Of a stretch of DNA of 64,000 nucleotides, positions 35,624 to 47,174 are shown piece by piece. A program made the translations under genes and the position numbers. The stretch lies in sequence record PP892525.1. One strand, written 5' to 3'. Source of the DNA: Escherichia phage vB_EcoS_I14. The notes under the pieces were generated by a model. The model was given only the letters and a program-made list of their open reading frames with translations, had not been told where the DNA came from and did not search any database. Position 1 is the first letter of the stretch, and every line of letters begins with the position of its first letter.

Positions 35624-35652
35624 TTGCTAAATGCTTATAAATTCTGTATAAT
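35624..35652 (+). promoter_or_regulatory. sigma70-type promoter at the start of the tRNA/ncRNA region
   Basis: TTGCTA-17bp-TATAAT; no ORF follows for about 750 bp. Confidence 0.7.
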
Positions 35653-35718
35653 ATATTCATAAATTAGAGAGTAATTTCTATCTAATTTATAAATAGTGGG
35701 GTGTGGAAATCACTTATG

Positions 35719-35790
35719 TAGTAACACTGCCGTCCTAGTATAATTGGTATTATCAAGCCGTAACTGGTGGAAGATGTAGGTTCGAATCCT
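35719..35790 (+). tRNA. tRNA-like element, anticodon arm not foldable
   Basis: T-arm GTAGG-TTCGAAT-CCTAC and acceptor GCCGTCC/GGTCGGT with one mismatch; no convincing D or anticodon stem; no CCA. Confidence 0.3.
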
Positions 35791-36293
35791 ACGGTCGGTA
35801 AGAACTGGATAACTGATGCTTTTAACGTAAAAGCTTCCGAGGTTAGTTGCGCACTGCCTAAACCACGCGGTAGTTGGTTCCAGACTAACCAACCAGTCTG
35901 CTGAATAGTTTTATTACGATTTAACTATGTCCAGGCTAAAGAAGAACTTTAGAAGGTATTTCTAGGATAGTGAAGTTCTTTCTCCATATCGGAGTAGTTT
36001 TTCAAGCTATCCACAAAGTGGGAAATGCTGACATGAGAGATGTCACTAATGGTGCACAATAGCACAGGTAATTCGCGATAACTCCTGTTGAGTAGCAGCA
36101 AAAGGCGGGAAGTCATGACCCCAAGCCTAACCGAGTCCTCAATATACCGCAGGACATAACCACTAAGTCACCCTGACTTAAACTGGAAAATAATAGACGT
36201 TACTGTATTTTGTCTTGAAATACTTAATGAGTGAGACTTATGATTCTCCCGGTATCGTCTGTATTTTTAAGAGTTTTTACGAGAGTTCTTAAA

Positions 36294-36368
36294 AATACTT
36301 AAACGGGGTGTAGTCTAATGGAGAGGCAGGAGTCTTCTAAATTCCTTTATGCAGGTTCGAATCCTGTC
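36294..36368 (+). tRNA. tRNA-Arg(TCT), tentative
   Basis: Acceptor CGGGGTG/CACCTCG; anticodon stem GGAGT/ATTCC, loop CTTCTAA; T-arm GCAGG-TTCGAAT-CCTGT; CCA encoded; short D-arm. Confidence 0.55.
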
Positions 36369-36412
36369 ACCTCGGCCAATTTTATTAACTGTAACTAAAA
36401 CAAAGGAAACAT

Positions 36413-37360
36413 ATGTTTAATACTAAAAATATGAAAGAATTGACTTCTGAGCAGAAAGTAATTCGTACTATTAAACGTTGGGGTATTGGTGCTATAGTTG
36501 GTTTAGCAGGTTTAATCCTAGCTTTTAATTCGTATACCATTGTTTCTGATGGTACGGTTAAAACCCAAACATTCCTGGGTAAAGTAGACCCTAATCCAGT
36601 ATTACCTGGTTTCCATCTTGTAAACCCGTTTGCATCTTTCGATACTTTTAGTACAAAAGATATTGCTGTAAAATTAGATAAACTTCAGGTTCCTAGCCAG
36701 GATAAGTTTAAATCCACTGTTGACCTGACTGTTATGTTGCAGTTTGATGGTTCTAAGGCACCAATTAACCGTATTAACGCAGGTACTCAGGATCAAGCGT
36801 TAGACAAGTATGTAACTGAAAAATTACTGTCTACTATTCGTGAGTTTGGTAAGTCTGTACCTAAAGCACAAGATTTGTTTGATGCTAAAATTCAGGCTCA
36901 ATTGCAAACCGCAATTCAACAAGAAGTTGAAGAGTATGCACGCCCATATGGTTACACAGTTAAGCAGGTATTCCTTCAGGATATTACTCTACCACCAGTA
37001 ATCATGGAACAGGTACAGAATACCAAAGTTCGTGAAGAGCAAGTTAATGCTGCGAAAGCTGAATTGGCTCGTGTTGAACAGGAAGCACAGCAAAAAGTTA
37101 AACAAGCAGAAGCAGATCGTGAAGCTCGCAACAACCAAGCTATTGCTAATGAACGTGACGCAGATGCTAAACTGTACGCAGCTAAGAAAGAAGCTGAAGC
37201 TAACGCCGCACTGCAACGTACCATTACTCCTGAGATGATTCGTTGGAAACAACTGGAAGTTGAGATGATTCGTGCTCAGAAATATCAAGGTGGTGTACCG
37301 CAGACTGTGGTTGGCACTGGCTATGATGGCCAAATGATTATGGATATGCGTAATAAATAA
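36413..37360 (+). CDS. SPFH/band-7 (prohibitin/HflKC-like) membrane protein
   Basis: 315 aa; N-terminal TM segment, SPFH-like core, Ala/Glu/Gln-rich coiled coil. Confidence 0.7.
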   Translation: MFNTKNMKELTSEQKVIRTIKRWGIGAIVGLAGLILAFNSYTIVSDGTVKTQTFLGKVDPNPVLPGFHLVNPFASFDTFSTKDIAVKLDKLQVPSQDKFKSTVDLTVMLQFDGSKAPINRINAGTQDQALDKYVTEKLLSTIREFGKSVPKAQDLFDAKIQAQLQTAIQQEVEEYARPYGYTVKQVFLQDITLPPVIMEQVQNTKVREEQVNAAKAELARVEQEAQQKVKQAEADREARNNQAIANERDADAKLYAAKKEAEANAALQRTITPEMIRWKQLEVEMIRAQKYQGGVPQTVVGTGYDGQMIMDMRNK

Positions 37361-37383
37361 TACCCGCACGTAACATCTGAAGT

Positions 37384-37419
37384 GAGCCCTGCGTTCCCTG
37401 GAGAGCGCAGGGCTTTTCT
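37384..37419 (+). terminator. intrinsic terminator after the SPFH gene
   Basis: GAGCCCTGCG...CGCAGGGCT hairpin followed by TTTT. Confidence 0.7.
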
Positions 37420-37456
37420 ATATAATGTATTTGTAAATCTAACTAGGAGATCAAAT

Positions 37457-37975
37457 ATGAATGTTGATGAGCTAATACAGCACCTCTTATCTAGGGGATT
37501 TGATACAGATAAATATCATTGCTGGTTAAGTCCGGAAGGATGGCTAACAGTCCCGTTGTATGACTTCTCTGGGATGTTGAGAGGCTATCAGACTTATAAT
37601 CCTTCTGCTCCCAAAAGGCAGGGTAAGTGCCCATTTGAAGCTAAATATTTTACCCATTCTACTACACAGTGTGTATGGGGGCTAGAAACTCTCAATGGAG
37701 ATGAAAAAGTAGTATTGATTGCTGAATCTGTATTTAAGGCAGTTGCGTTACATAACGCTGGTTATCCCGCCCTAGCAATGTTGGGTTCTTCTCCGGGAAA
37801 AGCATTATTAAAGCAACTGAAATTACTACCTTTTAAATTGATAGCTATTGGTGACAATGATCCCGATGGTGAAAAATTTGCTAGAAAATTAAACGGCTTT
37901 GTTTCTCCCGTAGATGTGGATGAGATGTCTACCGAAAACTTGAAAAATTTTCTTGCTATGAAGCTAAATTTCTAA
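37457..37975 (+). CDS. hypothetical protein with Toprim-like motifs
   Basis: ATG 37457 after AGGAGA; VVLIAESVF and IAIGDNDPDGEKFA; the track ORF starts at 37382 inside the terminator. Confidence 0.45.
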   Translation: MNVDELIQHLLSRGFDTDKYHCWLSPEGWLTVPLYDFSGMLRGYQTYNPSAPKRQGKCPFEAKYFTHSTTQCVWGLETLNGDEKVVLIAESVFKAVALHNAGYPALAMLGSSPGKALLKQLKLLPFKLIAIGDNDPDGEKFARKLNGFVSPVDVDEMSTENLKNFLAMKLNF

Positions 37976-37981
37976 TATAAT
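37953..37981 (+). promoter_or_regulatory. sigma70-type promoter upstream of tRNA-Ser
   Basis: TTGCTA-17bp-TATAAT; -35 lies in the 3' end of CDS 37457-37975. Confidence 0.65.
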
Positions 37982-37994
37982 ATATCTTATAAAT

Positions 37995-38085
37995 TCGGAA
38001 GAATAGCATAACGGTATTGCAGCAGATTGCTAATCTGTCGGTTTGAAATATAGCCTTGTGGGTTCGATTCCCACTTCTTCCGCCA
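37995..38085 (+). tRNA. tRNA-Ser(GCT), type II
   Basis: Acceptor GGAAGAA/TTCTTCC; anticodon loop TTGCTAA; long variable arm; T-loop GTTCGATTC; CCA encoded. Confidence 0.7.
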
Positions 38086-38091
38086 GATTTT

Positions 38092-38169
38092 GGTTCTCAA
38101 GCTCATATGGTATGAGCACCCGGCTCATAACCGGAAGGTACGTAGGTTCGAATCCTCGGGGAGCCACCA
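38092..38169 (+). tRNA. tRNA with CAT anticodon (Met or Ile2), tentative
   Basis: Acceptor GGTTCTC/GGGAGCC; D-stem GCTC/GAGC; anticodon loop CTCATAA; T-stem has two mismatches; CCA encoded. Confidence 0.5.
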
Positions 38170-38385: not shown

Positions 38386-38462
38386 GGGGGTGTAATCGAA
38401 TTGGCATAGGTACTGGACTTAAAATTCAGGTTTTGTGGGTTCGAATCCCACCACCCCTACCA
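38386..38462 (+). tRNA. tRNA, anticodon tentatively TAA (Leu)
   Basis: Acceptor GGGGGTG/CACCCCT; T-arm GTGGG-TTCGAAT-CCCAC; CCA encoded; D-arm unclear. Confidence 0.5.
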
Positions 38463-38477
38463 AATTAAGGAAATAAG

Positions 38478-38844: not shown

Positions 38845-38874
38845 CTCCTCCAAACAGAATTTTTAAAAATGTAC

Positions 38875-38904: not shown

Positions 38905-38934
38905 AGTTATATAAATTGATGAAGGAGTTAACGA

Positions 38935-39246: not shown

Positions 39247-39275
39247 TTGCTCAGTGCCTTAAAACTTGGTATAAT
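39247..39275 (+). promoter_or_regulatory. sigma70-type promoter upstream of tRNA-Tyr, overlapped by a 12-bp inverted repeat
   Basis: TTGCTC-17bp-TATAAT; perfect inverted repeat GCACTGAGCAAG/CTTGCTCAGTGC (39220-39257) spans the -35. Confidence 0.6.
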
Positions 39276-39338: not shown

Positions 39339-39426
39339 GGGCGTTTATTCCGTAAGTGGTAGCGGAGGGGATTGTAAATCCCTGGTCATTGCGACTCGAG
39401 TGGTTCGACTCCATTAACGCCCACCA
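39339..39426 (+). tRNA. tRNA-Tyr(GTA), type II
   Basis: Acceptor GGGCGTT/AACGCCC; anticodon stem GGGGA/TCCCT, loop TTGTAAA; long variable arm; CCA encoded. Confidence 0.7.
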
Positions 39427-39443
39427 AATTAAAGGTAAAGGAT

Positions 39444-39935
39444 ATGTATATTGATAGGATAATTCAAGAAGCTGCAAATAGGGGTATTATACAGTTAGGT
39501 TCACCCGCTGATATAAACAAAGATCTAATATTAGAGAGCCTCACATTTGGTACAGCTAACTTTGGTCGCGATAGTAATCGTCGGTATAGTTTGAAGTTAT
39601 CTGCTCTATCTTTTATCAAGTATAACAAAAGTATTGGAGAAAAATCCAGCTGTGGTTTTATTTATGCAATAACTAACCCAGCTTGGGATAACTATGTAAA
39701 AATTGGTATGTCTTCTGATCCTAAAACAAGATTAGGAAATTACCAGACTTACTCTCCTTTACGTGATTATAAGTTAATACATTGGTCATTTTGGTTTAAT
39801 GCTAGAGAAGCTGAGAAAATGCTTCATAATAGCTTTCCCGAACGGCTTAATGAATGGGTAGTATTAGATAGAAGTGTAGATGAAATACTTTCTGAGTTTA
39901 ATAATCTATCCAATAAACAATTTAAGTCCTGTTAG
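39444..39935 (+). CDS. T5orf172/GIY-YIG-like domain protein (homing-endonuclease-like)
   Basis: 163 aa; motif GFIYAITNPAWDNYVKIGMSSDPKTRLGNYQT; lies between tRNA genes. Confidence 0.55.
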   Translation: MYIDRIIQEAANRGIIQLGSPADINKDLILESLTFGTANFGRDSNRRYSLKLSALSFIKYNKSIGEKSSCGFIYAITNPAWDNYVKIGMSSDPKTRLGNYQTYSPLRDYKLIHWSFWFNAREAEKMLHNSFPERLNEWVVLDRSVDEILSEFNNLSNKQFKSC

Positions 39936-40002
39936 ACAAACTGGTAAAGTCACTACCCTTTCAAGGTAGGGTTTGTGGGTTCGATCCCCGCACAGGACGC
40001 CA
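39926..40002 (+). tRNA. tRNA-Glu(TTC)
   Basis: Acceptor GTCCTGT/ACAGGAC; anticodon stem CTACC/GGTAG, loop CTTTCAA; CCA encoded; 5' end overlaps the stop of CDS 39444-39935. Confidence 0.65.
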
Positions 40003-40010: not shown

Positions 40011-40087
40011 ATTCCTAGAGTGTTACTGGACAGCATGTCGGTCTCCAAAACCGTACGGTCTAGGTTCGAGTCCTAGTAGGTTTGCCA
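40011..40087 (+). tRNA. tRNA-Trp(CCA), tentative
   Basis: Anticodon loop CTCCAAA; T-arm CTAGG-TTCGAGT-CCTAG; CCA encoded; acceptor has two U-U mismatches. Confidence 0.45.
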
Positions 40088-40093: not shown

Positions 40094-40168
40094 GCACCTT
40101 TAGCTGAGATGGATTAGCGCTTGCCTGAAGAGCTTGAGAGGTTCGTTCGATACGAACAGGGTGCACCA
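40094..40168 (+). tRNA. tRNA-Phe(GAA), tentative
   Basis: Acceptor GCACCTT/AGGGTGC; D-stem GCTG/TAGC; anticodon loop CTGAAGA with weak stem; T-arm GTTCG-TTCGATA-CGAAC; CCA encoded. Confidence 0.55.
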
Positions 40169-40508: not shown

Positions 40509-40733
40509 ATGACAGAACAAGAATTGAATGAACGTAAGCTGGTAATGCTTCGCTTACTAAATATTTTCTCTGGTATGGACGGTGGAATTGACTTTGTTCA
40601 TCTACGTTCTTTCGTAGAAGAAGCCGAAGGCGAATCTATCACTAAAATCCTTAAACACATGGGATTACTTTTAGATGCTGCTAATGTGGCTACTGAATAT
40701 AAACTAGAAGATCTACCGGAGCGTGTTAAATGA
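40509..40733 (+). CDS. hypothetical protein
   Basis: ATG 40509 after GGAGAAG, downstream of promoter 40451-40479. Confidence 0.45.
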   Translation: MTEQELNERKLVMLRLLNIFSGMDGGIDFVHLRSFVEEAEGESITKILKHMGLLLDAANVATEYKLEDLPERVK

Positions 40734-40921
40734 AACGATTAGTTAGATTTAAGTGTTGTGGTTCTGAACATATTTTCACACATCTTCGTGAATTTAAAAT
40801 GTGTGATTGTGGTAAATCAGGCTATGACTCAGGAGATGGGTTCTACGCCCGTACTCTAGGGAACTTCAATGATCTAGAATTTGAAGATCTCGAAAAGCAA
40901 GATAAATCGACCGTTGGCTGA
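40730..40921 (+). CDS. hypothetical Cys-rich small protein
   Basis: 63 aa; CCGSEH...CDCG; 3' end overlaps tRNA-Cys. Confidence 0.4.
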   Translation: MKRLVRFKCCGSEHIFTHLREFKMCDCGKSGYDSGDGFYARTLGNFNDLEFEDLEKQDKSTVG

Positions 40922-40983
40922 ATGGCTTAGGCGAAGGATTGCAAATCCTTTTTATGTGAGTTCAAATCTCATGCGGTCGTCCA
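40908..40983 (+). tRNA. tRNA-Cys(GCA)
   Basis: Acceptor CGACCGT/GCGGTCG; anticodon stem AAGGA/TCCTT, loop TTGCAAA; T-loop TTCAAAT; CCA encoded; overlaps the 3' end of CDS 40730-40921. Confidence 0.7.
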
Positions 40984-40990: not shown

Positions 40991-41073
40991 GGGTCGTTAG
41001 CCAAGCGGTTTGGCGGCGGATTGTTAATCCGTGTCGAAAGACAACGTAGGTTCGAATCCTACACGGCCCGCCA
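40991..41073 (+). tRNA. tRNA-Asn(GTT) with extended variable region, tentative
   Basis: Acceptor GGGTCGT/ACGGCCC; D-stem GCCA/TGGC; anticodon stem GCGGA/TCCGT, loop TTGTTAA; CCA encoded. Confidence 0.6.
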
Positions 41074-41175
41074 AATTCTGTGTAGAGTTAAGTAAACCGG
41101 TAGCCAACCAGCTATCATTGCTGACATCGAATTCAGCCACAGATACCATTTTCATTAATAACTGAGGAAACAAGC

Positions 41176-41370: not shown

Positions 41371-41447
41371 GCGACCGGGGCTGGCTTGGTAATGGTACTC
41401 CCCTGTCACGGGAGGGAATGTGGGTTCAAATCCCATCGGTCGCGCCA
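41371..41447 (+). tRNA. tRNA-Asp(GTC)
   Basis: Perfect acceptor GCGACCG/CGGTCGC; anticodon stem CTCCC/GGGAG, loop CTGTCAC; T-loop TTCAAAT; CCA encoded. Confidence 0.75.
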
Positions 41448-41821: not shown

Positions 41822-42213
41822 CAAAATTTCAGTGCAGAACACGGAGCTAGCAATTCGGAAGTGCTGACTCATGATAAGCTGCCTATGTACTTGCGAAGCG
41901 GTCGTGTCCAAGACTCGGACTCTTGCACTGAAAACAATCAAACATTCTAGCGTGGTTGATGGGGAAACCAGCTTGGCTAGGGCAGAAGCTCGTTCGATTC
42001 GAGTGAAAGAATGGTTCTCGTAAGTCCGCACAAGTGATAGCAGGTTCGAGTCCTGTCTAGAATGACACTATAAAGTTTACTTATTATGTAGGTTCCGATA
42101 GATCGGCGGGTCTATTCTGGCATTTAAGAGAAGTCTCGCAAACTTTTTTGTCAGCCGTGGGGTTGGTAGCCTCCAGGTGGCCTACACAATAAGTAAATTT
42201 ATTAAAAATTCAT

Positions 42214-42242
42214 TTGCTATTCTGCTTTATTATCTGTATAAT
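42214..42242 (+). promoter_or_regulatory. sigma70-type early promoter
   Basis: TTGCTA-17bp-TATAAT, then TATAAAGTGAAGAGAAGG. Confidence 0.7.
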
Positions 42243-42437: not shown

Positions 42438-42515
42438 CTCCGTGTAGCTCAGTTTGGCCAGAGCGTTTCGTCTGGAGCGATAGGGTCGGGGGTTCAAATC
42501 CTCCCACGGAGACCA
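42438..42515 (+). tRNA. tRNA-Pro(TGG), tentative
   Basis: Acceptor CTCCGTG/CACGGAG; D-stem GCTC/GAGC; anticodon loop TCTGGAG; T-arm GGGGG-TTCAAAT-CCTCC; CCA encoded. Confidence 0.55.
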
Positions 42516-42521: not shown

Positions 42522-42599
42522 TGCGGGTTAGATCTCTGGTAGAGATCGCTAGTCTCATAAGCTAGAAAGAGGTAGGTTCGATTCCTGCACCCGCTTCCA
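42522..42599 (+). tRNA. tRNA with CAT anticodon and unpaired 1-72 (initiator-like Met), tentative
   Basis: Acceptor TGCGGGT/ACCCGCT with U-U at position 1-72; D-stem GATC/GATC; anticodon stem CTAGT/GCTAG, loop CTCATAA; CCA encoded. Confidence 0.55.
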
Positions 42600-42788: not shown

Positions 42789-42867
42789 AGATCGCTAGCT
42801 CAATAGGTTTAGTAGCATCCGACTTTTAATCGGAAGGTTCTGGGTTCGAGTCCCAGGCGATCTACCA
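42789..42867 (+). tRNA. tRNA-Lys(TTT)
   Basis: Perfect acceptor AGATCGC/GCGATCT; anticodon stem TCCGA/TCGGA, loop CTTTTAA; T-arm CTGGG-TTCGAGT-CCCAG; CCA encoded. Confidence 0.75.
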
Positions 42868-42871: not shown

Positions 42872-42945
42872 GCTCGGTTAGTTTAATGGGAGAACCCCGT
42901 CTTTACACGGCGGTTGCGATAGTTCGATTCTATCACCGAGTACCA
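42872..42945 (+). tRNA. tRNA-Val(TAC)
   Basis: Acceptor GCTCGGT/ACCGAGT; anticodon stem CCGTC/GGCGG, loop TTTACAC; T-arm GATAG-TTCGATT-CTATC; CCA encoded. Confidence 0.7.
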
Positions 42946-42964: not shown

Positions 42965-43324
42965 TTGCAAATGCAATTATCAAGCAAGGTTCAAGGCTAT
43001 TTCGGTCATGTAACAATGGAGTTCGCTATCTCTAAAGGTTGGGACTTCGAACAAGATTTAGCTGAGTTCTACAAAGATATTGATCTGAACGTACCATATA
43101 TGGGACTTTCTACTGGTCAGGAGATCACAGAAGCCGATGTATTCAAGGCAAGTCAAGGTGAGGTAACACCTAGTTTTGCCGAGTTCTGGTTAGGCATTAC
43201 GTTAAAAGAAGATGCACCAGATAGTGGTGTACTAATGTCTAGTTTGCACTCTGGAAGTTCCGATTACCTTTTCATTAGCGATGTTAAGGAAATACAAGAA
43301 GTCTGCAAAAATGTACTTGCTTGA
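42965..43324 (+). CDS. hypothetical protein
   Basis: 119 aa ORF. Confidence 0.5.
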   Translation: MQMQLSSKVQGYFGHVTMEFAISKGWDFEQDLAEFYKDIDLNVPYMGLSTGQEITEADVFKASQGEVTPSFAEFWLGITLKEDAPDSGVLMSSLHSGSSDYLFISDVKEIQEVCKNVLA

Positions 43325-43345: not shown

Positions 43346-43583
43346 ATTTATATAAATTGATGAGGATTTCTCCTCATCATAGTTCACTAAGGTATTAGCT
43401 CGACCTAGGACTGGCTGCCAAAAAGCACGATCCCTACGATTCGGGAGAAGTTCTAGATTAGTCCACTAGATTCAGCGGCAACTGAATAGTGTATTGGGTT
43501 TGCGAGATGACGCGGTTCCTTCCGCTCGAAGCGAAGGTGCTGTAGTTACGCCGAGCTAATAGCCTTAGTAAACTAAAGAATTT

Positions 43584-43657
43584 GGGGATATAGTTTAATG
43601 GTAGAACATCTGCTTTGCACGCAGAAGACGAGGGTTCAACTCCCTCTTTCTCCACCA
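43584..43657 (+). tRNA. tRNA-Ala(TGC)
   Basis: Acceptor GGGGATA/TTTCTCC with G3-U70; anticodon stem TCTGC/GCAGA, loop TTTGCAC; T-arm GAGGG-TTCAACT-CCCTC; CCA encoded. Confidence 0.7.
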
Positions 43658-43663: not shown

Positions 43664-43748
43664 GGGGCTATGCTGGAACTGGTAGACAATACGGCCTTAG
43701 ATTCCGTAGCTTAAATGCGTGGGAGTTCGAGTCTCCCTAGCCCCACCA
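43664..43748 (+). tRNA. tRNA-Leu(TAG), type II
   Basis: Perfect acceptor GGGGCTA/TAGCCCC; anticodon loop CTTAGAT; long variable arm; T-loop GTTCGAGTC; CCA encoded. Confidence 0.7.
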
Positions 43749-43764: not shown

Positions 43765-44349
43765 ATGCAGTTTGTACCAATAAAAGATGCACCAGGGTAT
43801 TTAGTAAATGAAACAGGGGATGTGTTATCTACATTTACTAATAAAATTTTATCAAGATATATAGTTGATGGATACCCTGCTGTAAAATTACAGATAAATG
43901 GTAAGCAAACTTCGGTACTTATACACCGAATTATTTCTCATGTATTTGGGGACTTATATAATCTATTTGACCCTGAATTAGAAGTAGATCACAAGGATAG
44001 AGATAGGCTGAATCTATCTAAAGATAATCTTCAAGTTTTATCAAAAATAGAACATCAGAAGAAAACTAATAAAGATAATGGATGGTCTGATAGTAGAGTA
44101 CCTTGCCCCTTATGTGGAAATCTAATGCTTCAGAGATCAGTAACATGTACAAATTGTAAGCCAAAACCTACAGGAAAGTTAATAAAACCAGAGTTGTCCT
44201 TAGAAGACATAACTGAAAAGGTTTTATTAATGGGGTGGGTTAAGGCAGCTAAAGATCTAGAAGTATCAGAGTCCACTTTACGTAGACGATATACTAAACT
44301 AACCGGATTAAGCCCAAAAGTATTAACAGAACAACGGAAAAGCAAATAG
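43765..44349 (+). CDS. HNH homing endonuclease
   Basis: 194 aa; HNH motif VDHKDRDRLNLSKDNLQVL; C-terminal HTH-like tail; within tRNA cluster. Confidence 0.75.
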   Translation: MQFVPIKDAPGYLVNETGDVLSTFTNKILSRYIVDGYPAVKLQINGKQTSVLIHRIISHVFGDLYNLFDPELEVDHKDRDRLNLSKDNLQVLSKIEHQKKTNKDNGWSDSRVPCPLCGNLMLQRSVTCTNCKPKPTGKLIKPELSLEDITEKVLLMGWVKAAKDLEVSESTLRRRYTKLTGLSPKVLTEQRKSK

Positions 44350-44429
44350 ACTGGTGACTAAACCCGATTGGAAATCGGTTGAGTGGTAGCAATACCGCCT
44401 TATGGGTTCAACTCCCATCTTTTCCGCCA
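44336..44429 (+). tRNA. tRNA-Ser(GGA), type II
   Basis: Perfect acceptor GGAAAAG/CTTTTCC; anticodon loop TTGGAAA; long variable arm; CCA encoded; 5' end overlaps the stop of the HNH gene. Confidence 0.65.
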
Positions 44430-44441
44430 AACAATTTATAT

Positions 44442-44536
44442 GGTAGGTCAATCCAACGGCTGGCGCTGGACTCCGACTTGAAATCGGTTGATCGTAGTGA
44501 TACGGTGTAAGGGTTCGATCCCCTTACCTACCTCCA
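44442..44536 (+). tRNA. tRNA-Ser(TGA), type II
   Basis: Perfect acceptor GGTAGGT/ACCTACC; anticodon loop CTTGAAA; T-arm AAGGG-TTCGATC-CCCTT; CCA encoded; unusually long (95 nt). Confidence 0.6.
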
Positions 44537-44902
44537 AATCTTGAAGTATGCCGGAATCGGTAGACGGGGCTGCCTAAAAGGTTTATAGGGAACATCCACT
44601 CCCTGCAACATACCTCATAAAGCGGCTGAGATAAATGGTCTATCTCGTGAAGGTTCAAGTCCTTCTGCTTCTTGATACATCTATGGCTCAAAGTGTAACG
44701 GTGCTATTTGATGCTCTTGGTAAGACTTCCCCGACATGCGTTCGGGAGTAAGCTGCTAAGGCTAGGGTAGAAGAGTTTCTGAGAGCCGCCACAATTGAAA
44801 ATTCGTACTCGTCTTGAGCTGCGTGCAATAGGAGATAACTTGATTAGTATTCTAGAACATGCTAATTGAGGAAGGTTTCGCTAACCCTGCGAGTTTTCAA
44901 TT

Positions 44903-44979
44903 GTGGCTATATCATAATTGGTTAATGATCCTGATTGTGAATCAGGCCTATGTGGATTCGAATTCCACTAGCCACCCCA
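44903..44979 (+). tRNA. tRNA-His(GTG)
   Basis: Perfect acceptor GTGGCTA/TAGCCAC; anticodon stem CCTGA/TCAGG, loop TTGTGAA; T-arm GTGGA-TTCGAAT-TCCAC; CCA encoded. Confidence 0.75.
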
Positions 44980-45003
44980 AATTAACTTAAATAGGAAATA
45001 AAT

Positions 45004-45198: not shown

Positions 45199-45214
45199 AA
45201 TAAGATGAAATTAT

Positions 45215-45290
45215 TGGGATGTAGATCAATTGGCAGATCGTCGGTTTCTGACATCGAAGGTTCCACGTTCGATCCGTGGCATCCCAGCCA
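45215..45290 (+). tRNA. tRNA-Gln(CTG)
   Basis: Acceptor TGGGATG/CATCCCA (U1-A72); D-stem GATC/GATC; anticodon loop TTCTGAC; T-arm CCACG-TTCGATC-CGTGG; CCA encoded. Confidence 0.75.
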
Positions 45291-45296
45291 AACAAT

Positions 45297-45371
45297 TGGA
45301 AAGTAGTGTAATGGTTAGCACTGGAGATTTTGAATCTCTTAGTTAGGGTTCGAATCCCTACTTTCCTGCCA
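45297..45371 (+). tRNA. tRNA-Gln(TTG), tentative
   Basis: Acceptor TGGAAAG/CTTTCCT with 1-72 mismatch; anticodon stem GGAGA/TCTCT, loop TTTTGAA; T-arm TAGGG-TTCGAAT-CCCTA; CCA encoded. Confidence 0.6.
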
Positions 45372-45377
45372 ATTTAC

Positions 45378-45452
45378 GCGTGATTAGTTCAGTGGCTAGA
45401 ATAACTGGCTTCCAACCAGTAGACACGAGTTCGACTCTCGTATCCCGCACCA
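45378..45452 (+). tRNA. tRNA-Gly(TCC)
   Basis: Acceptor GCGTGAT/ATCCCGC (one mismatch); anticodon stem ACTGG/CCAGT, loop CTTCCAA; T-arm ACGAG-TTCGACT-CTCGT; CCA encoded. Confidence 0.65.
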
Positions 45453-45469
45453 ATTTTTAAGGAAACGTT

Positions 45470-45691
45470 ATGCACGTTTTTGAATTTCGTAATAAAAGTA
45501 CCGATAAACGAGTTATTGTTATTGGAGAAACATACCGAGCATACGAACAAACTGACGGCTCTGTTATCTTGAATGACGAGAAAGGAGGTTTTAGCTTTTA
45601 TCCCAAAGAAACTTACGAAGAATTTCGTACAAAGTTTCTTCTACCAGACTGGCTAGAAGTAGCGCAGCAACGAGAACCCGAAGATGGCTGA
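45470..45691 (+). CDS. hypothetical protein
   Basis: 73 aa ORF. Confidence 0.45.
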   Translation: MHVFEFRNKSTDKRVIVIGETYRAYEQTDGSVILNDEKGGFSFYPKETYEEFRTKFLLPDWLEVAQQREPEDG

Positions 45692-45848
45692 TAACCTAAA
45701 AGTCAAGATCGATAAACAAAAGAAACGTGTAGAAGTAGAGATTGGTGAAGAACGTGTAGCCTTCACCTTTGAATTTCTACAACAAATGGCAATGACAGTT
45801 ATGACTGATAAGTCTCCTGTTATTGAAAAAGAAATCCCGTTAAAATAA
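45684..45848 (+). CDS. hypothetical small protein
   Basis: 54 codons; ATGGCTGA overlap with upstream stop; not in the ORF track. Confidence 0.3.
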   Translation: MADNLKVKIDKQKKRVEVEIGEERVAFTFEFLQQMAMTVMTDKSPVIEKEIPLK

Positions 45849-45856
45849 CGGGATCT

Positions 45857-45943
45857 GCTGGGTTGGCAGAATGGTTGAATGCACCTGATTTGTAATCAGG
45901 AGGAGTAATCCCGTTGCAGGTTCGAATCCTGTGCCCAGCACCA
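45857..45943 (+). tRNA. tRNA with TGT anticodon (Thr) and long variable region, tentative
   Basis: Acceptor GCTGGGT/GCCCAGC; anticodon stem CCTGA/TCAGG, loop TTTGTAA; T-arm GCAGG-TTCGAAT-CCTGT; CCA encoded; 87 nt. Confidence 0.55.
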
Positions 45944-45957
45944 ACTTAAGGACTAGT

Positions 45958-46125
45958 ATGTTTAAACTGTTAGTAGTTATCTGGTATAGTCAATCAAATA
46001 GAGCGAATACCTCCCACGTTATAGACTTTAATACTAAAAATGAAGCTGAAAAAGCATACGCTAATTTAATAGAACGTAATAAAGAATCTCGTAGTATAGT
46101 TTATGAAGTGACTAAACTTTATTAA
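45958..46125 (+). CDS. hypothetical small protein
   Basis: ATG 45958 after AAGGA; the track ORF starts at 45931 inside a tRNA. Confidence 0.35.
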   Translation: MFKLLVVIWYSQSNRANTSHVIDFNTKNEAEKAYANLIERNKESRSIVYEVTKLY

Positions 46126-46133
46126 AAATTCAT

Positions 46134-46162
46134 TTGCCTTCTCTCTTATTTCTTGTTATAAT
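46134..46162 (+). promoter_or_regulatory. sigma70-type early promoter
   Basis: TTGCCT-17bp-TATAAT, then TATAAATTAATGAGAGGG. Confidence 0.7.
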
Positions 46163-46192
46163 ATTTATATAAATTAATGAGAGGGAAACCAA

Positions 46193-46486
46193 ATGAAACG
46201 TTATATTTCTGTTATGTTCCAAACTGGTGGTCAACGCTATACATATGAATTTCCATCTTCTTGGAAAATCAAAGAAGGTGATCAAGTAGTTGTACTAACA
46301 CCTCGTGATGGGTACAAGGTAGTAACGGTTAAGCAAGTCTTCCCAAAAGATTATACGCCATCTAAGTCTATTAATTATAAAATGATTCATGGTGTAGTTC
46401 GTCAAGTACCACGAGCGGAAGTCGAAATCAAAGTAGATAAAGATGGTAAACTTAAATATACCTCTTGCTTAGAAGAGTTGCTATAA
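46193..46486 (+). CDS. hypothetical protein
   Basis: 97 aa ORF after promoter 46134-46162. Confidence 0.5.
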   Translation: MKRYISVMFQTGGQRYTYEFPSSWKIKEGDQVVVLTPRDGYKVVTVKQVFPKDYTPSKSINYKMIHGVVRQVPRAEVEIKVDKDGKLKYTSCLEELL

Positions 46487-46692
46487 TGAGGATTACTTTT
46501 ACAGAAAAGATCATGAGTAATGGTGTTATGATCATTACTGCATGGGATGGTAATCAGTGGTGTAGTGTCTCAGGTATTAAGCCTGAAGAACAAACACTAG
46601 ATAATATCTCAAAGATTAAGCGAAGAATGACAGAACGTGCACGACTTCCAGGTGCACCTAGAAATGGCAAACGTTCTGCTGCAAAATGTTAA
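46486..46692 (+). CDS. hypothetical protein
   Basis: ATG 46486; the track ORF starts at TTG 46465. Confidence 0.4.
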   Translation: MRITFTEKIMSNGVMIITAWDGNQWCSVSGIKPEEQTLDNISKIKRRMTERARLPGAPRNGKRSAAKC

Positions 46693-46693
46693 T

Positions 46694-46770
46694 GCTTCGG
46701 TAGCTTAGCGATCTAAAGCACTCGGCTGATAACCGAGAGATCGGGGGTTTAAATCCCTCCCGGAGTACCA
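46694..46770 (+). tRNA. tRNA-Ile(GAT)
   Basis: Acceptor GCTTCGG/CCGGAGT; D-stem GCTT/AAGC; anticodon stem CTCGG/CCGAG, loop CTGATAA; CCA encoded. Confidence 0.7.
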
Positions 46771-46866
46771 AATTTAGGAATTAAGACTATGCGTCCAGGA
46801 AAGTTTAAAAAAGCTAATTGGTCTAAAGAGTATAAAGAATACTTACTTAGTCTAGTAAAACATAAT

Positions 46867-46942
46867 AGTTAGTTGGCAGAGTGGTTATGCACCTCCTTCA
46901 TACGGAGCGACTACAGTGGTTCAAATCCACTACTAACTACCA
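46867..46942 (+). tRNA. tRNA with CAT anticodon (Met or Ile2), tentative
   Basis: Perfect acceptor AGTTAGT/ACTAACT; anticodon loop TTCATAC; T-arm AGTGG-TTCAAAT-CCACT; CCA encoded. Confidence 0.6.
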
Positions 46943-46979
46943 TTAAAAGAGCTAGAGATAGCTAACTTTAGGAGCAGCT

Positions 46980-47174
46980 ATGTTAACAATTAAAATAATG
47001 TCAGCCAAGAATGGGGAACAGATTCATACAGGCAAAAGTGTAAGCTTTAATCCTAGAAATAAAAGACTGGCTATAGTTGGAGTAGACCAAGCCATCTTTT
47101 TAAAAGAAGATGAAGTAGCATATGTCATGAACCAAACTGGTAAGACAGTTTCCGTATACTATGGAAAAGTATAA
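46980..47174 (+). CDS. hypothetical protein
   Basis: 64 aa ORF. Confidence 0.4.
   Translation: MLTIKIMSAKNGEQIHTGKSVSFNPRNKRLAIVGVDQAIFLKEDEVAYVMNQTGKTVSVYYGKV

What the first reader, a model, noticed from the sequence alone, without database searches (positions are those of the whole stretch)
35624..47000. Large tRNA cluster with three CAT-anticodon tRNAs, non-canonical arms and tRNAs overlapping ORF ends
About 26 tRNA genes were hand-called covering most amino acids, including three with CAT anticodons (38092, 42522, 46867; consistent with elongator Met, initiator Met and Ile2). Several show short D-arms (3-bp stem, 5-nt loop) or mismatched anticodon or T stems. At least three begin inside the last codons of protein genes (39926, 40908, 44336), which implies coupling between mRNA 3' ends and tRNA processing.
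Basis: seen in the sequence. Interest (0 to 1): 0.45.

Follow-up and report, generated by a model that had tools for sequence, protein, structure and literature searches.

The report
T5-type phage tRNA gene cluster

Summary
ARAGORN and Rfam together tRNA-type genes on the + strand between 35.7 and 47.0 kb. A 27th, Ser-UGA at 44442, is sub-threshold but is the slot counterpart of a T5 tRNA recorded as an effective suppressor. That makes 26 decoding tRNAs with encoded CCA, covering all 20 amino acids and an initiator, plus one anticodon-less tRNA-like element.

The three CAT tRNAs are real. They match T5's annotated tRNA-Ile2 (38092), tRNA-fMet (42522) and tRNA-Met (46867).

The three ORF/tRNA overlaps are exact (10, 14 and 14 nt), and all three ORFs evolve as coding sequence. 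Two are homing-endonuclease genes, one T5orf172/GIY-YIG-like and one the HNH F-TflI orthologue, inserted into tiny inter-tRNA spacers. They borrow a stop codon from inside the tRNA.

The window is about 96% identical to annotated Tequintavirus genomes and collinear with T5. T5's record already carries these tRNAs and overlaps. The idea that tRNA maturation cuts the endonuclease mRNA was already published for T4 SegB and T5 F-Tfl.

Verdict: already known, low interest.

[quoted passage not shown] I found no description of these in two keyword searches of the held library.

The parts
35624..35652 (+). sigma-70 promoter (TTGCTA-17-TATAAT) heading the cluster; homologue of T5 promoter P16-17
   Evidence: promoter scan; BLAST to T5 annotated promoters
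35729..35800 (+). tRNA-like element with no CCA, A33 and no canonical anticodon arm; lies inside the homologue of T5 stable 'RNAX'
   Evidence: Rfam 35.5 bits with the anticodon arm skipped; ARAGORN only at 95% threshold; compensatory changes in acceptor and T stems across 7 phages; labelled tRNA-Undet in the IME178 record
36304..36378 (+). tRNA-Arg(UCU)
37384..37415 (+). 13-bp intrinsic terminator; homologue of T5's 'efficient bidirectional terminator'
37953..37981 (+). promoter (TTGCTA-17-TATAAT); homologue of T5 P15b
37997..38085 (+). tRNA-Ser(GCU), class II
38092..38169 (+). tRNA(CAU) of the Ile2 (lysidine) type, with a weak 3-bp T stem
   Evidence: Rfam 40.3 bits; ARAGORN at 95% threshold; 97% identical to T5 tRNAI2(CAU); has C29-G41, U12-A23 and A73; compensatory G30-C40 here versus A-U in T5
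38386..38462 (+). tRNA-Leu(UAA), 77 nt with only a 5-nt variable loop (class-I-like); absent from T5
   Evidence: 100% identical in about 290 phage records
38875..38904 (+). promoter (TTGCCT-18-TATAAT, with TG); homologue of T5 P15c
39247..39275 (+). extended -10 promoter (TTGCTC-17-TGGTATAAT) upstream of tRNA-Tyr; homologue of T5 P14a
   Evidence: read from the sequence; BLAST
39339..39426 (+). tRNA-Tyr(GUA), class II
   Evidence: below the Rfam tRNA threshold
39444..39935 (+). 163-aa T5orf172/MUG113 (GIY-YIG-type) homing-endonuclease-like ORF inserted in the 7-nt Tyr-Glu spacer; its stop TAG is tRNA-Glu nt 8-10
   Evidence: Pfam; present in slur09, absent from T5, IME178, 26175IV and TrudiRoth; 18 synonymous versus 1 non-synonymous codon change
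39926..40002 (+). tRNA-Glu(UUC)
40011..40087 (+). tRNA-Trp(CCA) with U2.U71 and U3.U70 in the acceptor stem; weakest decoding candidate
   Evidence: 36.3 bits; MFE fold is not a cloverleaf
40094..40168 (+). tRNA-Phe(GAA) with U28.U42 and U29.U41 in the anticodon stem
40730..40921 (+). 63-aa Cys-rich ORF (CC..C.C); its stop TGA is tRNA-Cys nt 12-14
   Evidence: conserved with third-position bias in 4 genomes; annotated in TrudiRoth; weak DUF7695 match
40908..40983 (+). tRNA-Cys(GCA)
40991..41073 (+). tRNA-Asn(GUU), 83 nt, with an extra-arm hairpin GUC-GAAA-GAC
   Evidence: covariation in the extra arm
41371..41447 (+). tRNA-Asp(GUC)
42214..42242 (+). promoter (TTGCTA-17-TATAAT); homologue of T5 P13a
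42438..42515 (+). tRNA-Pro(UGG)
42522..42599 (+). initiator-type tRNA(CAU): U1.U72 mismatch, G2-C71, C3-G70, A11-U24
   Evidence: 100% identical to T5 tRNAfM
42789..42867 (+). tRNA-Lys(UUU); an allele different from T5's
42872..42945 (+). tRNA-Val(UAC)
43584..43657 (+). tRNA-Ala(UGC)
43664..43748 (+). tRNA-Leu(UAG), class II
43765..44349 (+). 194-aa HNH endonuclease, orthologue of T5 hegC (F-TflI); its stop TAG is tRNA-Ser nt 12-14
   Evidence: Pfam HNH_3; 96% amino-acid identity to T5 hegC; the same 14-nt overlap is annotated in T5
44336..44429 (+). tRNA-Ser(GGA), class II
   Evidence: tRNA-Sec model 43.9 bits
44442..44536 (+). tRNA-Ser(UGA), class II, discriminator U; missed by both default runs
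44903..44979 (+). tRNA-His(GUG); U rather than G at position -1
45215..45290 (+). tRNA-Gln(CUG)
45297..45371 (+). tRNA-Gln(UUG)
45378..45452 (+). tRNA-Gly(UCC)
45857..45943 (+). tRNA-Thr(UGU), 87 nt, with an extra-arm hairpin GGA-GUAA-UCC; not homologous to T5's 75-nt allele
46134..46162 (+). promoter (TTGCCT-17-TATAAT, with TG); homologue of T5 P11
46694..46770 (+). tRNA-Ile(GAU)
46867..46942 (+). elongator-type tRNA-Met(CAU): U4-A69, A5-U68, C11-G24
   Evidence: 100% identical to T5 tRNAM

Best explanation
The region is the tRNA-rich early region of a Tequintavirus (T5-like siphophage).

Layout. About 11 kb is read rightward from several strong sigma-70 promoters as mixed tRNA/mRNA transcripts. 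It holds 26 tRNA genes, all with CCA encoded. Many sit in pairs or triplets 4-12 nt apart. Between them lie small ORFs, a tRNA-like element and homologues of T5's stable RNAs.

Processing (inferred). Host RNase P and 3' processing enzymes cut out the tRNAs. The same cuts set the ends of the neighbouring mRNAs.

What the set does. First, it supplies decoders for codons the AT-rich phage uses much more than E. coli does (AGA, CUA, AUA, GUA, ACA, CCA, UUA). Second, as shown experimentally for T5, it provides replacement tRNAs when host defence nucleases destroy host tRNAs: Lys, Thr and Asn against PARIS AriB, and Tyr against retron Eco7.

The overlaps. They arise mainly because free-standing homing-endonuclease genes (HNH or T5orf172/GIY-YIG type) have inserted into the few-nucleotide spacers between tRNA genes. 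They carry no stop codon of their own, read on into the next tRNA and stop there, often at the conserved U8-A9-G10 = TAG. RNase P cleavage at the tRNA 5' end would then remove the stop codon from the endonuclease mRNA, which should limit endonuclease synthesis.

Shown here: the tRNA inventory, synteny, ORF identities, insertion junctions, and coding and structural conservation. Shown by others for T5: defence evasion and suppressor activity. Inferred: co-transcription, RNase P coupling and aminoacylation identities.
For: Family and synteny: 94-96% identity over 81-86% of the region to annotated Tequintavirus genomes. The region is collinear with T5, and every tRNA allele is at least 95% identical to one in a public phage record.

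tRNAs. All 26 decoding tRNAs encode CCA.

Promoters and terminator: these coincide with T5-annotated ones.

Functional evidence in T5: the record notes amber-suppressor tests for each tRNA. T5 tRNA-Lys, Thr and Asn neutralise PARIS (PMC11464382 and PMC12409363). T5-type tRNA-Tyr counters retron Eco7 (PMC11555353).

Codon use: across 51 window ORFs, AGA is 3.8x, CUA 4.6x, AUA 2.1x, GUA 2.2x, ACA 1.9x, CCA 1.8x and UUA 1.6x the E. coli values as I remember them.

Endonuclease genes:
- Pfam HNH_3, NUMOD4 or T5orf172/MUG113 on every ORF of at least 150 aa that runs into a tRNA.
- Presence/absence differs among near-identical genomes, and the old spacer 'aatttaa' survives at the 3' end of the insert.
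- 12 of 13 endonuclease-like ORFs next to a tRNA overlap it, against 8 of 53 other ORFs.
- Stops fall at tRNA nt 8-10 or 12-14.
- Substitutions in the overlapping ORFs are mostly at third codon positions.

Literature precedent for cleavage at the stop codon: PMC2330249.
Against: - No RNA data were available, so co-transcription, RNase P cleavage inside the ORFs and any effect on endonuclease levels are inferences.
- The count of promoter-like sites in the region is no higher than in shuffled sequence (32 versus 33.7). Only the best sites, which match T5's annotated promoters, carry weight.
- The third overlapping ORF (63 aa, next to tRNA-Cys) is not endonuclease-like, so insertion of mobile genes does not explain every overlap.
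- Roughly half of the tRNAs read codons the phage does not over-use (AGC, GAC, CAC, UGC, UGG), so codon supply alone is not enough.
- The tRNAs shown to protect T5 (Lys, Thr, Asn, Tyr) are different alleles from those in this window. Their defence-evasion role here is extrapolated.
- tRNA-Trp has two U.U pairs and does not fold as a cloverleaf on its own. T5's record says several tRNAs gave no suppressor activity, so some genes may be poorly functional.
Confidence: 0.9

Rival explanations
1. The ORF/tRNA overlaps are only a passive by-product of gene packing and of where mobile endonuclease genes landed. The extra C-terminal codons and the stop inside the tRNA have no regulatory meaning, and tRNA processing does not control expression of these genes.
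For: The whole region is tightly packed. Non-endonuclease ORFs end 0-21 nt before the next tRNA. TAG at tRNA positions 8-10 is a conserved tRNA feature, so any ORF entering in that frame stops there by default. The insert sits exactly in the old 7-nt spacer, which alone explains the geometry.
Against: Twelve of 13 endonuclease-like ORFs, at 8 different junction types, lack a stop of their own, against 8 of 53 other ORFs. That looks like more than packing. For T4 segB the cleavage between the last and the stop codon during tRNA-Arg maturation is reported, with lowered expression proposed (PMC2330249).
Confidence: 0.35
2. The cluster exists only to match the tRNA pool to phage codon usage (translation efficiency). 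The unusual arms are neutral drift in genes under weak constraint.
For: Codons read by Arg-UCU, Leu-UAG, Ile2, Val-UAC, Thr-UGU, Pro-UGG and Leu-UAA are 1.6-4.6x over-used relative to remembered E. coli values. T5's record lists several tRNAs that gave no suppressor activity.
Against: The set covers all 20 amino acids, including codons the phage under-uses. Experiments show that T5 tRNAs rescue infection from PARIS and retron Eco7. Stems keep pairing through compensatory changes. Several alleles are 100% conserved across genera. Neither pattern is what drift would give.
Confidence: 0.2
3. The weakest candidates are decayed or non-decoding genes: the 35729 element, tRNA-Trp 40011, and possibly the 38092 tRNA with its 3-bp T stem.
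For: 35729 has no CCA, has A33, and has an anticodon arm that Rfam cannot align. Trp has two U.U pairs, 36.3 bits and a non-cloverleaf MFE fold with z = +0.3. T5's Trp gave no suppressor activity. The IME178 record labels Tyr as pseudo and 35729 as undetermined.
Against: The acceptor and T stems of 35729 covary across phages, so it is a selected structure, just not a decoder. 38092 keeps its anticodon stem by a compensatory G-C to A-U change, and T5's copy is recorded as active when converted to a suppressor. Trp is 100% identical in four genomes from two genera.
Confidence: 0.5

Closest known systems
Bacteriophage T5 tRNA gene region (AY543070 / NC_005859, about 28.0-41.6 kb)
   Same: Same gene order, orientation and promoters. 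It has the same three CAU tRNAs (tRNAI2, tRNAfM, tRNAM). The same HNH gene (hegC / F-TflI) overlaps tRNA-Ser(GGA) by 14 nt. It also has the same tRNA-like element inside RNAX and the same stable-RNA region before tRNA-His.
   Different: The window has tRNA-Leu(UAA), a T5orf172-type gene between Tyr and Glu, and ORF 42965-43324. It lacks hegA, hegD, T5.069 and T5.077-079. It carries non-homologous alleles of Thr, Asn, Lys, Pro, Ser-UGA, Trp, Gln-UUG and Gly, at 49-72% best match.
Closest sequenced relatives: Escherichia phages IME178, slur09, Es2, AKFV33, HMD-P3
   Same: 94-96% nucleotide identity over 85-86% of the region (IME178, slur09, Es2, AKFV33). Their annotations already list the same tRNAs, including the 87-nt Thr, the 83-nt Asn, the 77-nt Leu(UAA) and an 'undetermined' tRNA at the 35729 position.
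   Different: They differ mainly in which endonuclease genes and which tRNA alleles occupy each slot. For example, IME178 has no gene between Tyr and Glu and carries a different tRNA-Glu.
Phage T4 tRNA cluster with the homing endonuclease SegB
   Same: A GIY-YIG-type free-standing endonuclease gene lies inside a tRNA cluster, with its stop codon at the 5' end of the next tRNA. tRNA maturation is reported to cut between the last and the stop codon (PMC2330249).
   Different: T4 has 8 tRNAs and a single such gene. Here there are 26 tRNAs, and across the family there are at least 8 different endonuclease/tRNA junctions from two nuclease families.
Defence-evading phage tRNAs (T5 tRNA-Lys/Thr/Asn versus PARIS AriB; T5/SP15 tRNA-Tyr versus retron Eco7)
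   Same: Same family of phages and the same tRNA slots. Sequence changes in the anticodon stem-loop distinguish phage tRNAs from host tRNAs.
   Different: This window's Thr and Asn keep the host-like U36-A-A-U-C motif next to the AriB cut site, and instead carry an extra-arm hairpin. Its Lys allele is UAAUCG, not T5's UAAACC. Whether these alleles resist AriB is untested.

Membership tests
T5-like (Tequintavirus, Demerecviridae) tRNA-rich region | High nucleotide identity and collinearity with the T5 tRNA region, including flanking genes | tested here: met
   94-96% identity to Tequintavirus records. Collinear BLAST blocks to T5 at 75-100% identity. The flanking T5.081/082 homologues and the GrcA-like gene are present.
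T5-like (Tequintavirus, Demerecviridae) tRNA-rich region | All tRNA slots annotated in T5 are present in the same order | tested here: met
   All 25 T5 slots (T5t01-T5t25) have a window counterpart, plus one extra, Leu-UAA.
Canonical bacterial-type tRNA genes | Cloverleaf recognised by a covariance model or ARAGORN, 7-nt anticodon loop with U33, 3' CCA | tested here: met
   Met for 26 genes. Three of them (Tyr, Ser-GGA, Ser-UGA) fall below the Rfam tRNA gathering score, and two (38092, Ser-UGA) need a lowered ARAGORN threshold.
Canonical bacterial-type tRNA genes | The same criteria applied to the candidate at 35729-35800 | tested here: not met
   No CCA, A at position 33, and the anticodon arm is not alignable. 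It is a tRNA-like element.
Bacterial initiator tRNA (for 42522) | Unpaired 1:72 position with G2-C71 and C3-G70 (formylation determinants) | tested here: met
   U1.U72 mismatch (E. coli has C1xA72), G2-C71, C3-G70. The determinants are taken from established knowledge.
Bacterial initiator tRNA (for 42522) | A11-U24 instead of the pyrimidine11-purine24 of elongators | tested here: met
   The D stem GAUC/GAUC gives A11-U24. The other two CAU tRNAs have C11-G24.
Bacterial initiator tRNA (for 42522) | Three consecutive G-C pairs 29-41, 30-40 and 31-39 in the anticodon stem | tested here: not met
   A29-U41, G30-C40, U31.G39, so only the middle pair is kept. It is therefore an initiator-type variant. 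T5's record nevertheless names the identical gene 'initiator tRNA fMet'.
tRNA-Ile2 (CAU, lysidine-modified; for 38092) | Isoleucine identity pairs C29-G41 and U12-A23, with A37, A38 and A73 | tested here: met
   All are present in 38092 and in T5's copy. They are absent from 46867 (U29-A41) and 42522 (A29-U41). C29-G41 is listed as an Ile determinant in PMC9976931.
tRNA-Ile2 (CAU, lysidine-modified; for 38092) | C4-G69 and C5-G68 in the acceptor stem (TilS discrimination against tRNA-Met; from memory) | tested here: inconclusive
   38092 has U4-A69 and C5-G68. 46867 has U4-A69 and A5-U68, as in E. coli tRNA-Met.
tRNA-Ile2 (CAU, lysidine-modified; for 38092) | Lysidine at C34 and charging with isoleucine | not testable with these tools
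   Needs mass spectrometry or aminoacylation assays. Indirect support: AUA is 9.0 per thousand codons and there is no UAU-anticodon tRNA.
Free-standing homing endonuclease genes (for 39444-39935 and 43765-44349) | Nuclease domain of a homing-endonuclease family | tested here: met
   T5orf172/MUG113 at 34.9 and 34.6 bits; HNH_3 at 26.0 bits. All are above the Pfam cut-offs.
Free-standing homing endonuclease genes (for 39444-39935 and 43765-44349) | Presence/absence polymorphism at a precise intergenic site between conserved genes in close relatives | tested here: met
   The Tyr-Glu gap is 499 nt in the window and slur09, but 6-7 nt in T5, IME178, 26175IV and TrudiRoth. The spacer sequence is retained at the insert end. 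The HNH gene is present upstream of Ser-GGA in the window and T5 but not in TrudiRoth.
Free-standing homing endonuclease genes (for 39444-39935 and 43765-44349) | Site-specific cleavage of the endonuclease-free allele and preferential inheritance | not testable with these tools
   Activity is reported for T5 F-TflI, II and IV (Akulenko et al. 2004, cited in PMC2330249). It has not been tested for this window's proteins.
Class II (long-variable-arm) tRNA (considered for Thr 45857 and Asn 40991) | Base-paired extra arm in a variable region of more than about 10 nt | tested here: met
   Thr has a 15-nt variable region with GGA-GUAA-UCC. Asn has a 12-13-nt region with GUC-GAAA-GAC. For Asn, the stem covaries in 3 of 4 pairs.
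Class II (long-variable-arm) tRNA (considered for Thr 45857 and Asn 40991) | In bacteria the class is limited to Leu, Ser and Tyr isoacceptors | tested here: not met
   The anticodons are UGU and GUU. Thr has G1-C72 and C2-G71, as tRNA-Thr does, and the Asn anticodon arm equals the E. coli tRNA-Asn arm as I remember it. I therefore do not file them as class II tRNAs. They are class I isoacceptors with an inserted mini-hairpin.

The most novel reading that the evidence does not exclude
[quoted passage not shown] This type keeps a host-like anticodon stem-loop but has a 2-4-bp hairpin, GNRA-capped in most variants, inserted in the variable region. The hairpin may block nucleases that cut the 3' strand of the anticodon stem, such as PARIS AriB, whose reported targets are Lys-UUU, Thr-UGU and Asn-GUU. 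That would be a second route of escape, alongside the point substitutions seen in T5's own alleles. The 77-nt tRNA-Leu(UAA) without a long arm could be the mirror case. That the hairpin is real and under selection is well supported. Its role in defence is speculation.
Probability: 0.2. Interest if true: 0.5.

Novelty: already known. Interest (0 to 1): 0.15.

Why it matters
As a finding it matters little. It re-describes the T5-family tRNA region. That region's tRNAs were catalogued and tested in the T5 genome record. Its embedded endonucleases F-TflI, II and IV were characterised, and its role in escaping tRNA-cleaving defences has been shown recently.

The check does put numbers on two things.

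First, in this phage family, running into the next tRNA goes almost entirely with mobile endonuclease genes. They insert into spacers of a few nucleotides and borrow a stop codon from the tRNA. This gives a clean natural system for asking whether RNase P processing throttles selfish-gene expression.

Second, the same genomic slot holds unrelated alleles of the same isoacceptor in different phages. These include Thr and Asn tRNAs with an added hairpin arm. That pattern is what an arms race with tRNA-targeting defences would produce. It could guide which phage tRNAs to test against which nucleases.

Tried and rejected
1. BLAST of the 38092 CAU tRNA against 5,426 E. coli genomes, to assign its isotype by nearest host gene. 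The best hits were tRNA-Arg at 73-75% identity with E-values of 0.2-7, so the result was uninformative. I used identity elements and T5's annotation instead.

2. Unconstrained MFE folding as a test of tRNA-hood. It works for Asn, Ser-UGA, 38092 and the 35729 element, but Thr, Leu-UAA and Trp do not give cloverleaves, and z-scores run from +0.3 to -3.1. It is not decisive either way for tRNAs.

3. A consensus promoter count for the region. It is not above the shuffled expectation (32 versus 33.7). Only the sites that coincide with T5-annotated promoters were used.

4. Rfam at a permissive threshold, to find homologues of T5's stable RNAs (RNA1, RNA2, RNA3, RNAI, RNAIII, RNAIV, RNA2H). No family matched. 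They are recognisable only by BLAST to T5.

5. The idea that the overlapping ORFs are spurious. I rejected it because substitutions between relatives are concentrated at third codon positions and two of the ORFs have Pfam nuclease domains.

6. The idea that the 87-nt Thr is a re-coded Ser, Leu or Tyr tRNA. I considered it unlikely because it has G1-C72, C2-G71, G35 and U36, as tRNA-Thr does, and only a 3-bp extra arm. It cannot be excluded without charging assays.

7. A scan of 185,579 species genomes for long-variable-region tRNA-Asn. There were 85 matches in assorted, mostly uncultured lineages and none in Enterobacterales. Only 8 fold as 83-88-nt tRNA-Asn, and the rest were not resolved.

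8. Literature searches for a description of long-arm phage tRNA-Thr or tRNA-Asn found none. This is not proof of absence.

Full report
WHAT THE WINDOW IS. The stretch 35000-47500 matches 544 phage records. The best matches are Escherichia phages IME178, slur09, Es2 and AKFV33, at 94-96% identity over 85-86% of the query. All four are T5-like phages; the records I opened (IME178, slur09) are classified as Tequintavirus, Demerecviridae. BLAST against phage T5 gives a collinear series of blocks at 75-100% identity. The finding therefore lies in the T5-family tRNA region. T5's own record annotates this region in unusual detail: 25 tRNAs with notes on in vivo suppressor tests, eight stable RNAs, about a dozen promoters and several HNH endonuclease genes.

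CHECK OF THE OBSERVATION: THE tRNA COUNT. ARAGORN at default settings tRNAs, all on the + strand between 36304 and 46942. Rfam's tRNA model at gathering score. The two sets differ by two each way. Rfam adds 35729-35800 (35.5 bits) and 38092-38166 (40.3 bits, anticodon CAT). ARAGORN adds Tyr 39339 and Ser-GGA 44336, which Rfam places under the related tRNA-Sec model below its threshold.

A further class II gene, Ser-UGA at 44442-44536, is seen only below threshold, at 38.3 bits with the tRNA-Sec model and by ARAGORN at 95% threshold. Read directly, it has a perfect acceptor stem GGUAGGU/ACCUACC, a CUUGAAA anticodon loop, a 6-bp extra arm and CCA. Its MFE fold is a class II cloverleaf. It sits in the slot of T5 tRNA-Ser1(UGA), which T5's record calls an effective suppressor.

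The total is 26 decoding tRNAs plus one tRNA-like element. They cover all 20 amino acids and an initiator. All 26 encode CCA. Ten neighbouring pairs are only 4-12 nt apart.

THE FOUR CANDIDATES NAMED AS POSSIBLE REFUTATIONS. 38386 (Leu-UAA) passes both tools at 57.4 bits. 40011 (Trp) passes both, weakly, at 36.3 bits. It has U2.U71 and U3.U70 and does not form a cloverleaf as its MFE fold. It is nevertheless identical in four genomes from two genera. 38092 passes Rfam, and passes ARAGORN only at a lowered threshold, because its T stem has just three pairs. Its anticodon stem differs from T5's by a compensatory change, G30-C40 here versus A-U in T5. T5's record says the T5 copy works as a suppressor after anticodon replacement.

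The candidate given as 35719 starts at 35728/35729. Rfam matches only its acceptor, D and T arms and skips 18 nt where the anticodon arm should be. The loop reads UAACUGG, with A at position 33, and no CCA follows. Its acceptor and T stems keep pairing through compensatory changes in T5, DT57C, TrudiRoth and 26175IV. It lies about 70 nt downstream of the promoter at 35624-35652, inside the homologue of T5's stable 'RNAX'. The IME178 record labels it a tRNA of undetermined type. It is a conserved tRNA-like structure, not a decoder.

THE THREE CAT tRNAs. All three are real, and they can be told apart from their sequences.
- 42522 has an unpaired 1:72 position (U.U), G2-C71, C3-G70 and A11-U24. 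These are hallmarks of bacterial initiators (established knowledge). It keeps only G30-C40 of the three G-C pairs. It is 100% identical to the gene T5's record calls 'initiator tRNA fMet'.
- 38092 has C29-G41, U12-A23, A37, A38 and A73, which is the isoleucine identity set. C29-G41 is listed as an Ile determinant in PMC9976931. It is 97% identical to T5 tRNAI2(CAU).
- 46867 has U4-A69 and A5-U68, as E. coli elongator tRNA-Met does (from memory). It is identical to T5 tRNAM.
AUA makes up 9.0 per thousand codons in 51 window ORFs, and no UAU-anticodon tRNA is present. One CAU tRNA is therefore expected to be the AUA reader. Read in coordinate order, the first and third are swapped.

NON-CANONICAL ARMS. 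These are confirmed in general. About eleven tRNAs have D stems of three pairs or fewer. Phe has U28.U42 and U29.U41. Pro, Leu-UAG, Ser-GGA and Met have a mismatch in the anticodon stem. Ala and Gly have one in the acceptor stem, and Gln-UUG has U1.U72. The particular '3-bp stem with 5-nt loop' was not reproduced, because ARAGORN's D loops are 7-11 nt. T5 tRNA-Phe is already noted in the literature for unusual, Mg-dependent recognition by PheRS (PMC9976931).

THE OVERLAPS. The coordinates are exact.
- ORF 39444-39935 ends ...CAA TTT AA|G TCC TGT TAG. Its stop is nt 8-10 of tRNA-Glu.
- ORF 40730-40921 ends with TGA at nt 12-14 of tRNA-Cys.
- ORF 43765-44349 ends with TAG at nt 12-14 of tRNA-Ser-GGA.
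All three evolve as coding sequence. Against slur09, the 163-aa ORF shows 17 of 19 differences at third positions, with 18 synonymous and 1 non-synonymous codon change. The 194-aa ORF against T5 hegC shows 24 of 33 differences at third positions. The 63-aa ORF against Epseptimavirus copies shows 21 of 38.

WHAT THE OVERLAPPING GENES ARE. The 163-aa protein carries a T5orf172/MUG113 domain, which belongs to the GIY-YIG superfamily (clan membership from memory). The 194-aa protein carries HNH_3 and is 96% identical to T5 hegC, named F-TflI in AY543070. T5's record annotates the same 14-nt overlap with tRNA-Ser2(GGA). The 63-aa protein is Cys-rich, with only a weak DUF7695 match. TrudiRoth's record annotates it with the same overlap.

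Looking wider, every ORF of at least 150 aa that runs into a tRNA in seven genomes is HNH (with or without NUMOD4) or T5orf172-type. The junctions are:
- slur09, 26175IV and TrudiRoth: a 157-aa ORF into Lys-UUU.
- T5: T5.069 into Asn, and hegD (F-TflII) into Gln-CUG.
- 26175IV: a 184-aa ORF into Lys-CUU.
- TrudiRoth: a 193-aa ORF into Asp, and a 171-aa ORF into Ser-UGA.
Counted over all seven genomes, 12 of 13 endonuclease-like ORFs next to a tRNA overlap it, and the thirteenth abuts it. Only 8 of 53 other ORFs of at least 50 aa overlap, and four of those are the same 63-aa gene. The genomes are related, so these counts are not independent. They still represent eight distinct junctions.

The Tyr-Glu junction shows how the overlap arises. 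T5, 26175IV and TrudiRoth have a 6-7-nt spacer, 'a(a)tttaa'. IME178 also has a 7-nt spacer, but with a different tRNA-Glu. The window and slur09 have 499 nt that begin 'aatta', carry a ribosome-binding site and ATG, and end '...caatttaa' directly before tRNA-Glu. The gene sits inside the old spacer, has no stop codon of its own, and reads into the tRNA until the conserved U8-A9-G10.

HOW THE REGION MOST LIKELY WORKS. Transcription runs rightward from promoters that match T5's annotated ones, at 35624, 37953, 38875, 39247, 42214 and 46134. A strong terminator lies at 37384-37415. ORFs start 16-18 nt after a tRNA's CCA and end 0-21 nt before the next tRNA. tRNAs and mRNAs must therefore come from the same precursors, and RNase P and 3' processing must set the mRNA ends. 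That step is inference. For the endonuclease genes, RNase P would cut inside codon 161 of 163 (Glu junction) and codon 191 of 194 (Ser junction). That would leave mRNAs with no stop codon. This is exactly what the SegB paper describes for T4 segB and tRNA-Arg. That paper also says the same lowering of expression was proposed for T5 F-TflI and F-TflII (PMC2330249).

WHAT THE tRNAs ARE FOR. Two explanations fit, and they are not exclusive.
- Codon supply. Relative to E. coli frequencies as I remember them, the window's ORFs over-use AGA (3.8x), CUA (4.6x), GUA (2.2x), AUA (2.1x), ACA (1.9x), CCA (1.8x), UUA and GGA (1.6x) and AAA (1.5x). Each of these has a matching phage tRNA.
- Defence evasion. 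In T5, tRNA-Lys(UUU), Thr(UGU) and Asn(GUU) together neutralise the PARIS nuclease AriB (PMC11464382 and PMC12409363). The tRNA-Tyr of T5 and SP15, driven by a very strong promoter, counters retron Eco7 (PMC11555353).
About half of the tRNAs here read codons the phage does not over-use. That fits a complete back-up set better than codon matching alone.

MOSAIC ALLELES. Each window tRNA is at least 95% identical to a copy in some public phage genome. The partner genome changes from slot to slot, however. Several slots hold unrelated alleles in different phages: Lys-UUU has three types, and Thr, Asn, Pro, Tyr, Ser-UGA, Glu and Gly also vary. Together with the mobile endonuclease genes, this suggests frequent allele replacement by recombination.

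A SIDE OBSERVATION WORTH KEEPING. The window's tRNA-Thr(UGU) is 87 nt and its tRNA-Asn(GUU) is 83 nt. Each has a small hairpin in the variable region: GGA-GUAA-UCC in Thr and GUC-GAAA-GAC in Asn. T5's own Thr and Asn are ordinary in length (75 and 78 nt) and unrelated in sequence.

The 87-nt Thr occurs in about 100 T5-like records. An 85-nt homologue occurs in T4-like Aeromonas phages, where the hairpin is CC-GAAA-GG and the acceptor, anticodon and T stems carry compensatory changes. The long Asn occurs in more than 500 phage records, including T4-like Klebsiella, Pectobacterium and Erwinia phages and a Proteus phage. Its stem varies as GUC/GAC, AUCC/GGAU, GUUC/GAAC and GUCA/UGAC, under a GNRA loop in most. 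Three of its four pairs change on both sides.

Both tRNAs keep the U36-A-A-U-C sequence next to the AriB cut site, whereas T5's alleles have G at position 39. An inserted arm next to the 3' strand of the anticodon stem could be another way to keep such nucleases off. Against this, the authors of the AriB study found that Bas34's own tRNA-Asn did not suffice against PARIS, and they could not exclude that it is cleaved. I did not check which Asn allele Bas34 carries.

I found no description of these arms in the papers searched. A scan of 185,579 species genomes found 85 pattern matches, none in Enterobacterales and only eight folding as long tRNA-Asn. The 77-nt tRNA-Leu(UAA), which lacks the long arm that bacterial tRNA-Leu normally has, is identical in about 290 phage records and is the opposite oddity. 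Public records already annotate all of these as tRNA-Thr, tRNA-Asn and tRNA-Leu. Only the reading of their structure would be new.

COMPARISON WITH WHAT IS KNOWN, AND VERDICT. The cluster is a member of the T5-family tRNA region by identity, order and content. The CAU trio, the F-TflI/tRNA-Ser overlap and the tRNA-like RNAX element are in T5's record. The processing-coupling idea and the defence role are published. It is a correct hand annotation of a known system. Interest is 0.15 and novelty is 'already known'. The most novel reading left open is the extra-arm Thr and Asn tRNAs acting as a nuclease-evasion device. I put that at about 0.2 probability, with moderate interest if true.

Noticed in passing
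window 45857-45943 and 40991-41073; L008:1501-1585, L006:9541-9626, L010-L013: [quoted passage not shown] The hairpin covaries across T5-like and T4-like phages, while the anticodon stem-loop stays host-like, including the UAAUC motif next to the PARIS AriB cut site. T5's own alleles are short and have G39 instead.
   Followed up: partly
window 38386-38462: tRNA-Leu(UAA) is 77 nt with a 5-nt variable loop and A73. It lacks the long arm that bacterial tRNA-Leu normally has. It is absent from T5, 100% identical in about 290 phage records, and about 81% identical to a Pseudomonas phage ZC03 gene annotated as tRNA-Leu.
   Followed up: partly
window 35729-35800: A conserved tRNA-like element with acceptor, D and T arms but a non-canonical anticodon arm and no CCA. 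It sits about 70 nt after a strong promoter, inside the homologue of T5 'RNAX'. Its stems covary across seven phages, and in 26175IV the anticodon arm is replaced and ARAGORN calls it tRNA-SeC(tca).
   Followed up: partly
window 39427-39935; L001, L003, L006, L007 junctions: Homing-endonuclease genes in this phage family have no stop codon of their own and end inside the next tRNA, often at U8-A9-G10 = TAG/TAA. Twelve of 13 such ORFs overlap a tRNA, against 8 of 53 other ORFs. The old 7-nt spacer is still readable at the end of the Tyr-Glu insert.
   Followed up: yes
window 42789-42867, 42438-42515, 44442-44536, 45297-45452 versus L003, L001, L006: The same genomic slot holds unrelated alleles of the same isoacceptor in different T5-like phages. 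Lys-UUU has three types, and Pro, Tyr, Ser-UGA, Glu, Gly and Gln-UUG also vary. This makes a mosaic consistent with frequent allele replacement.
   Followed up: partly
window 44902-44903: tRNA-His has U, not G, at position -1, while keeping C73. G-1 is the main HisRS identity element in E. coli (from memory). The T5 and DT57C records annotate this tRNA one nucleotide longer than ARAGORN does (78 versus 77 nt).
   Followed up: no
window 44537-44902, 41076-41150, 41940-42070, 43390-43565: These are homologues (BLAST only) of T5's stable RNAs of unknown function (RNA1/RNAI/RNAIII, RNA3, RNA2/RNAIV, RNA2H). 44649-44665 is a T-arm-like hairpin, GAAGGUUCAAGUCCUUC. No Rfam family matches. In relatives the corresponding slots hold extra tRNAs (Lys-CUU, Gly-GCC, Arg-ACG), so some of these RNAs may be decayed tRNA genes.
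   Followed up: no
window 40730-40921: A 63-aa Cys-rich (CC...C.C) ORF overlaps tRNA-Cys by 14 nt. It is conserved in two genera with third-position bias and is not endonuclease-like. It is the one clearly conserved overlap that mobile-gene insertion does not explain; the few other non-endonuclease overlaps are short ORFs that may be spurious.
   Followed up: partly
window 40094-40168: The tRNA-Phe anticodon stem has two adjacent U.U mismatches, which are conserved in T5. T5 tRNA-Phe is reported to show Mg-dependent recognition by E. coli PheRS (PMC9976931).
   Followed up: no
window 36413-37360, 37382-37975, 47217-47585: Non-tRNA cargo of the region: an SPFH/Band-7 membrane protein, a Toprim-domain protein (T5.076 homologue) and a GrcA-like glycyl-radical protein. 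The window lacks T5.077-079, which in T5 lie on the opposite strand beside the bidirectional terminator.
   Followed up: no
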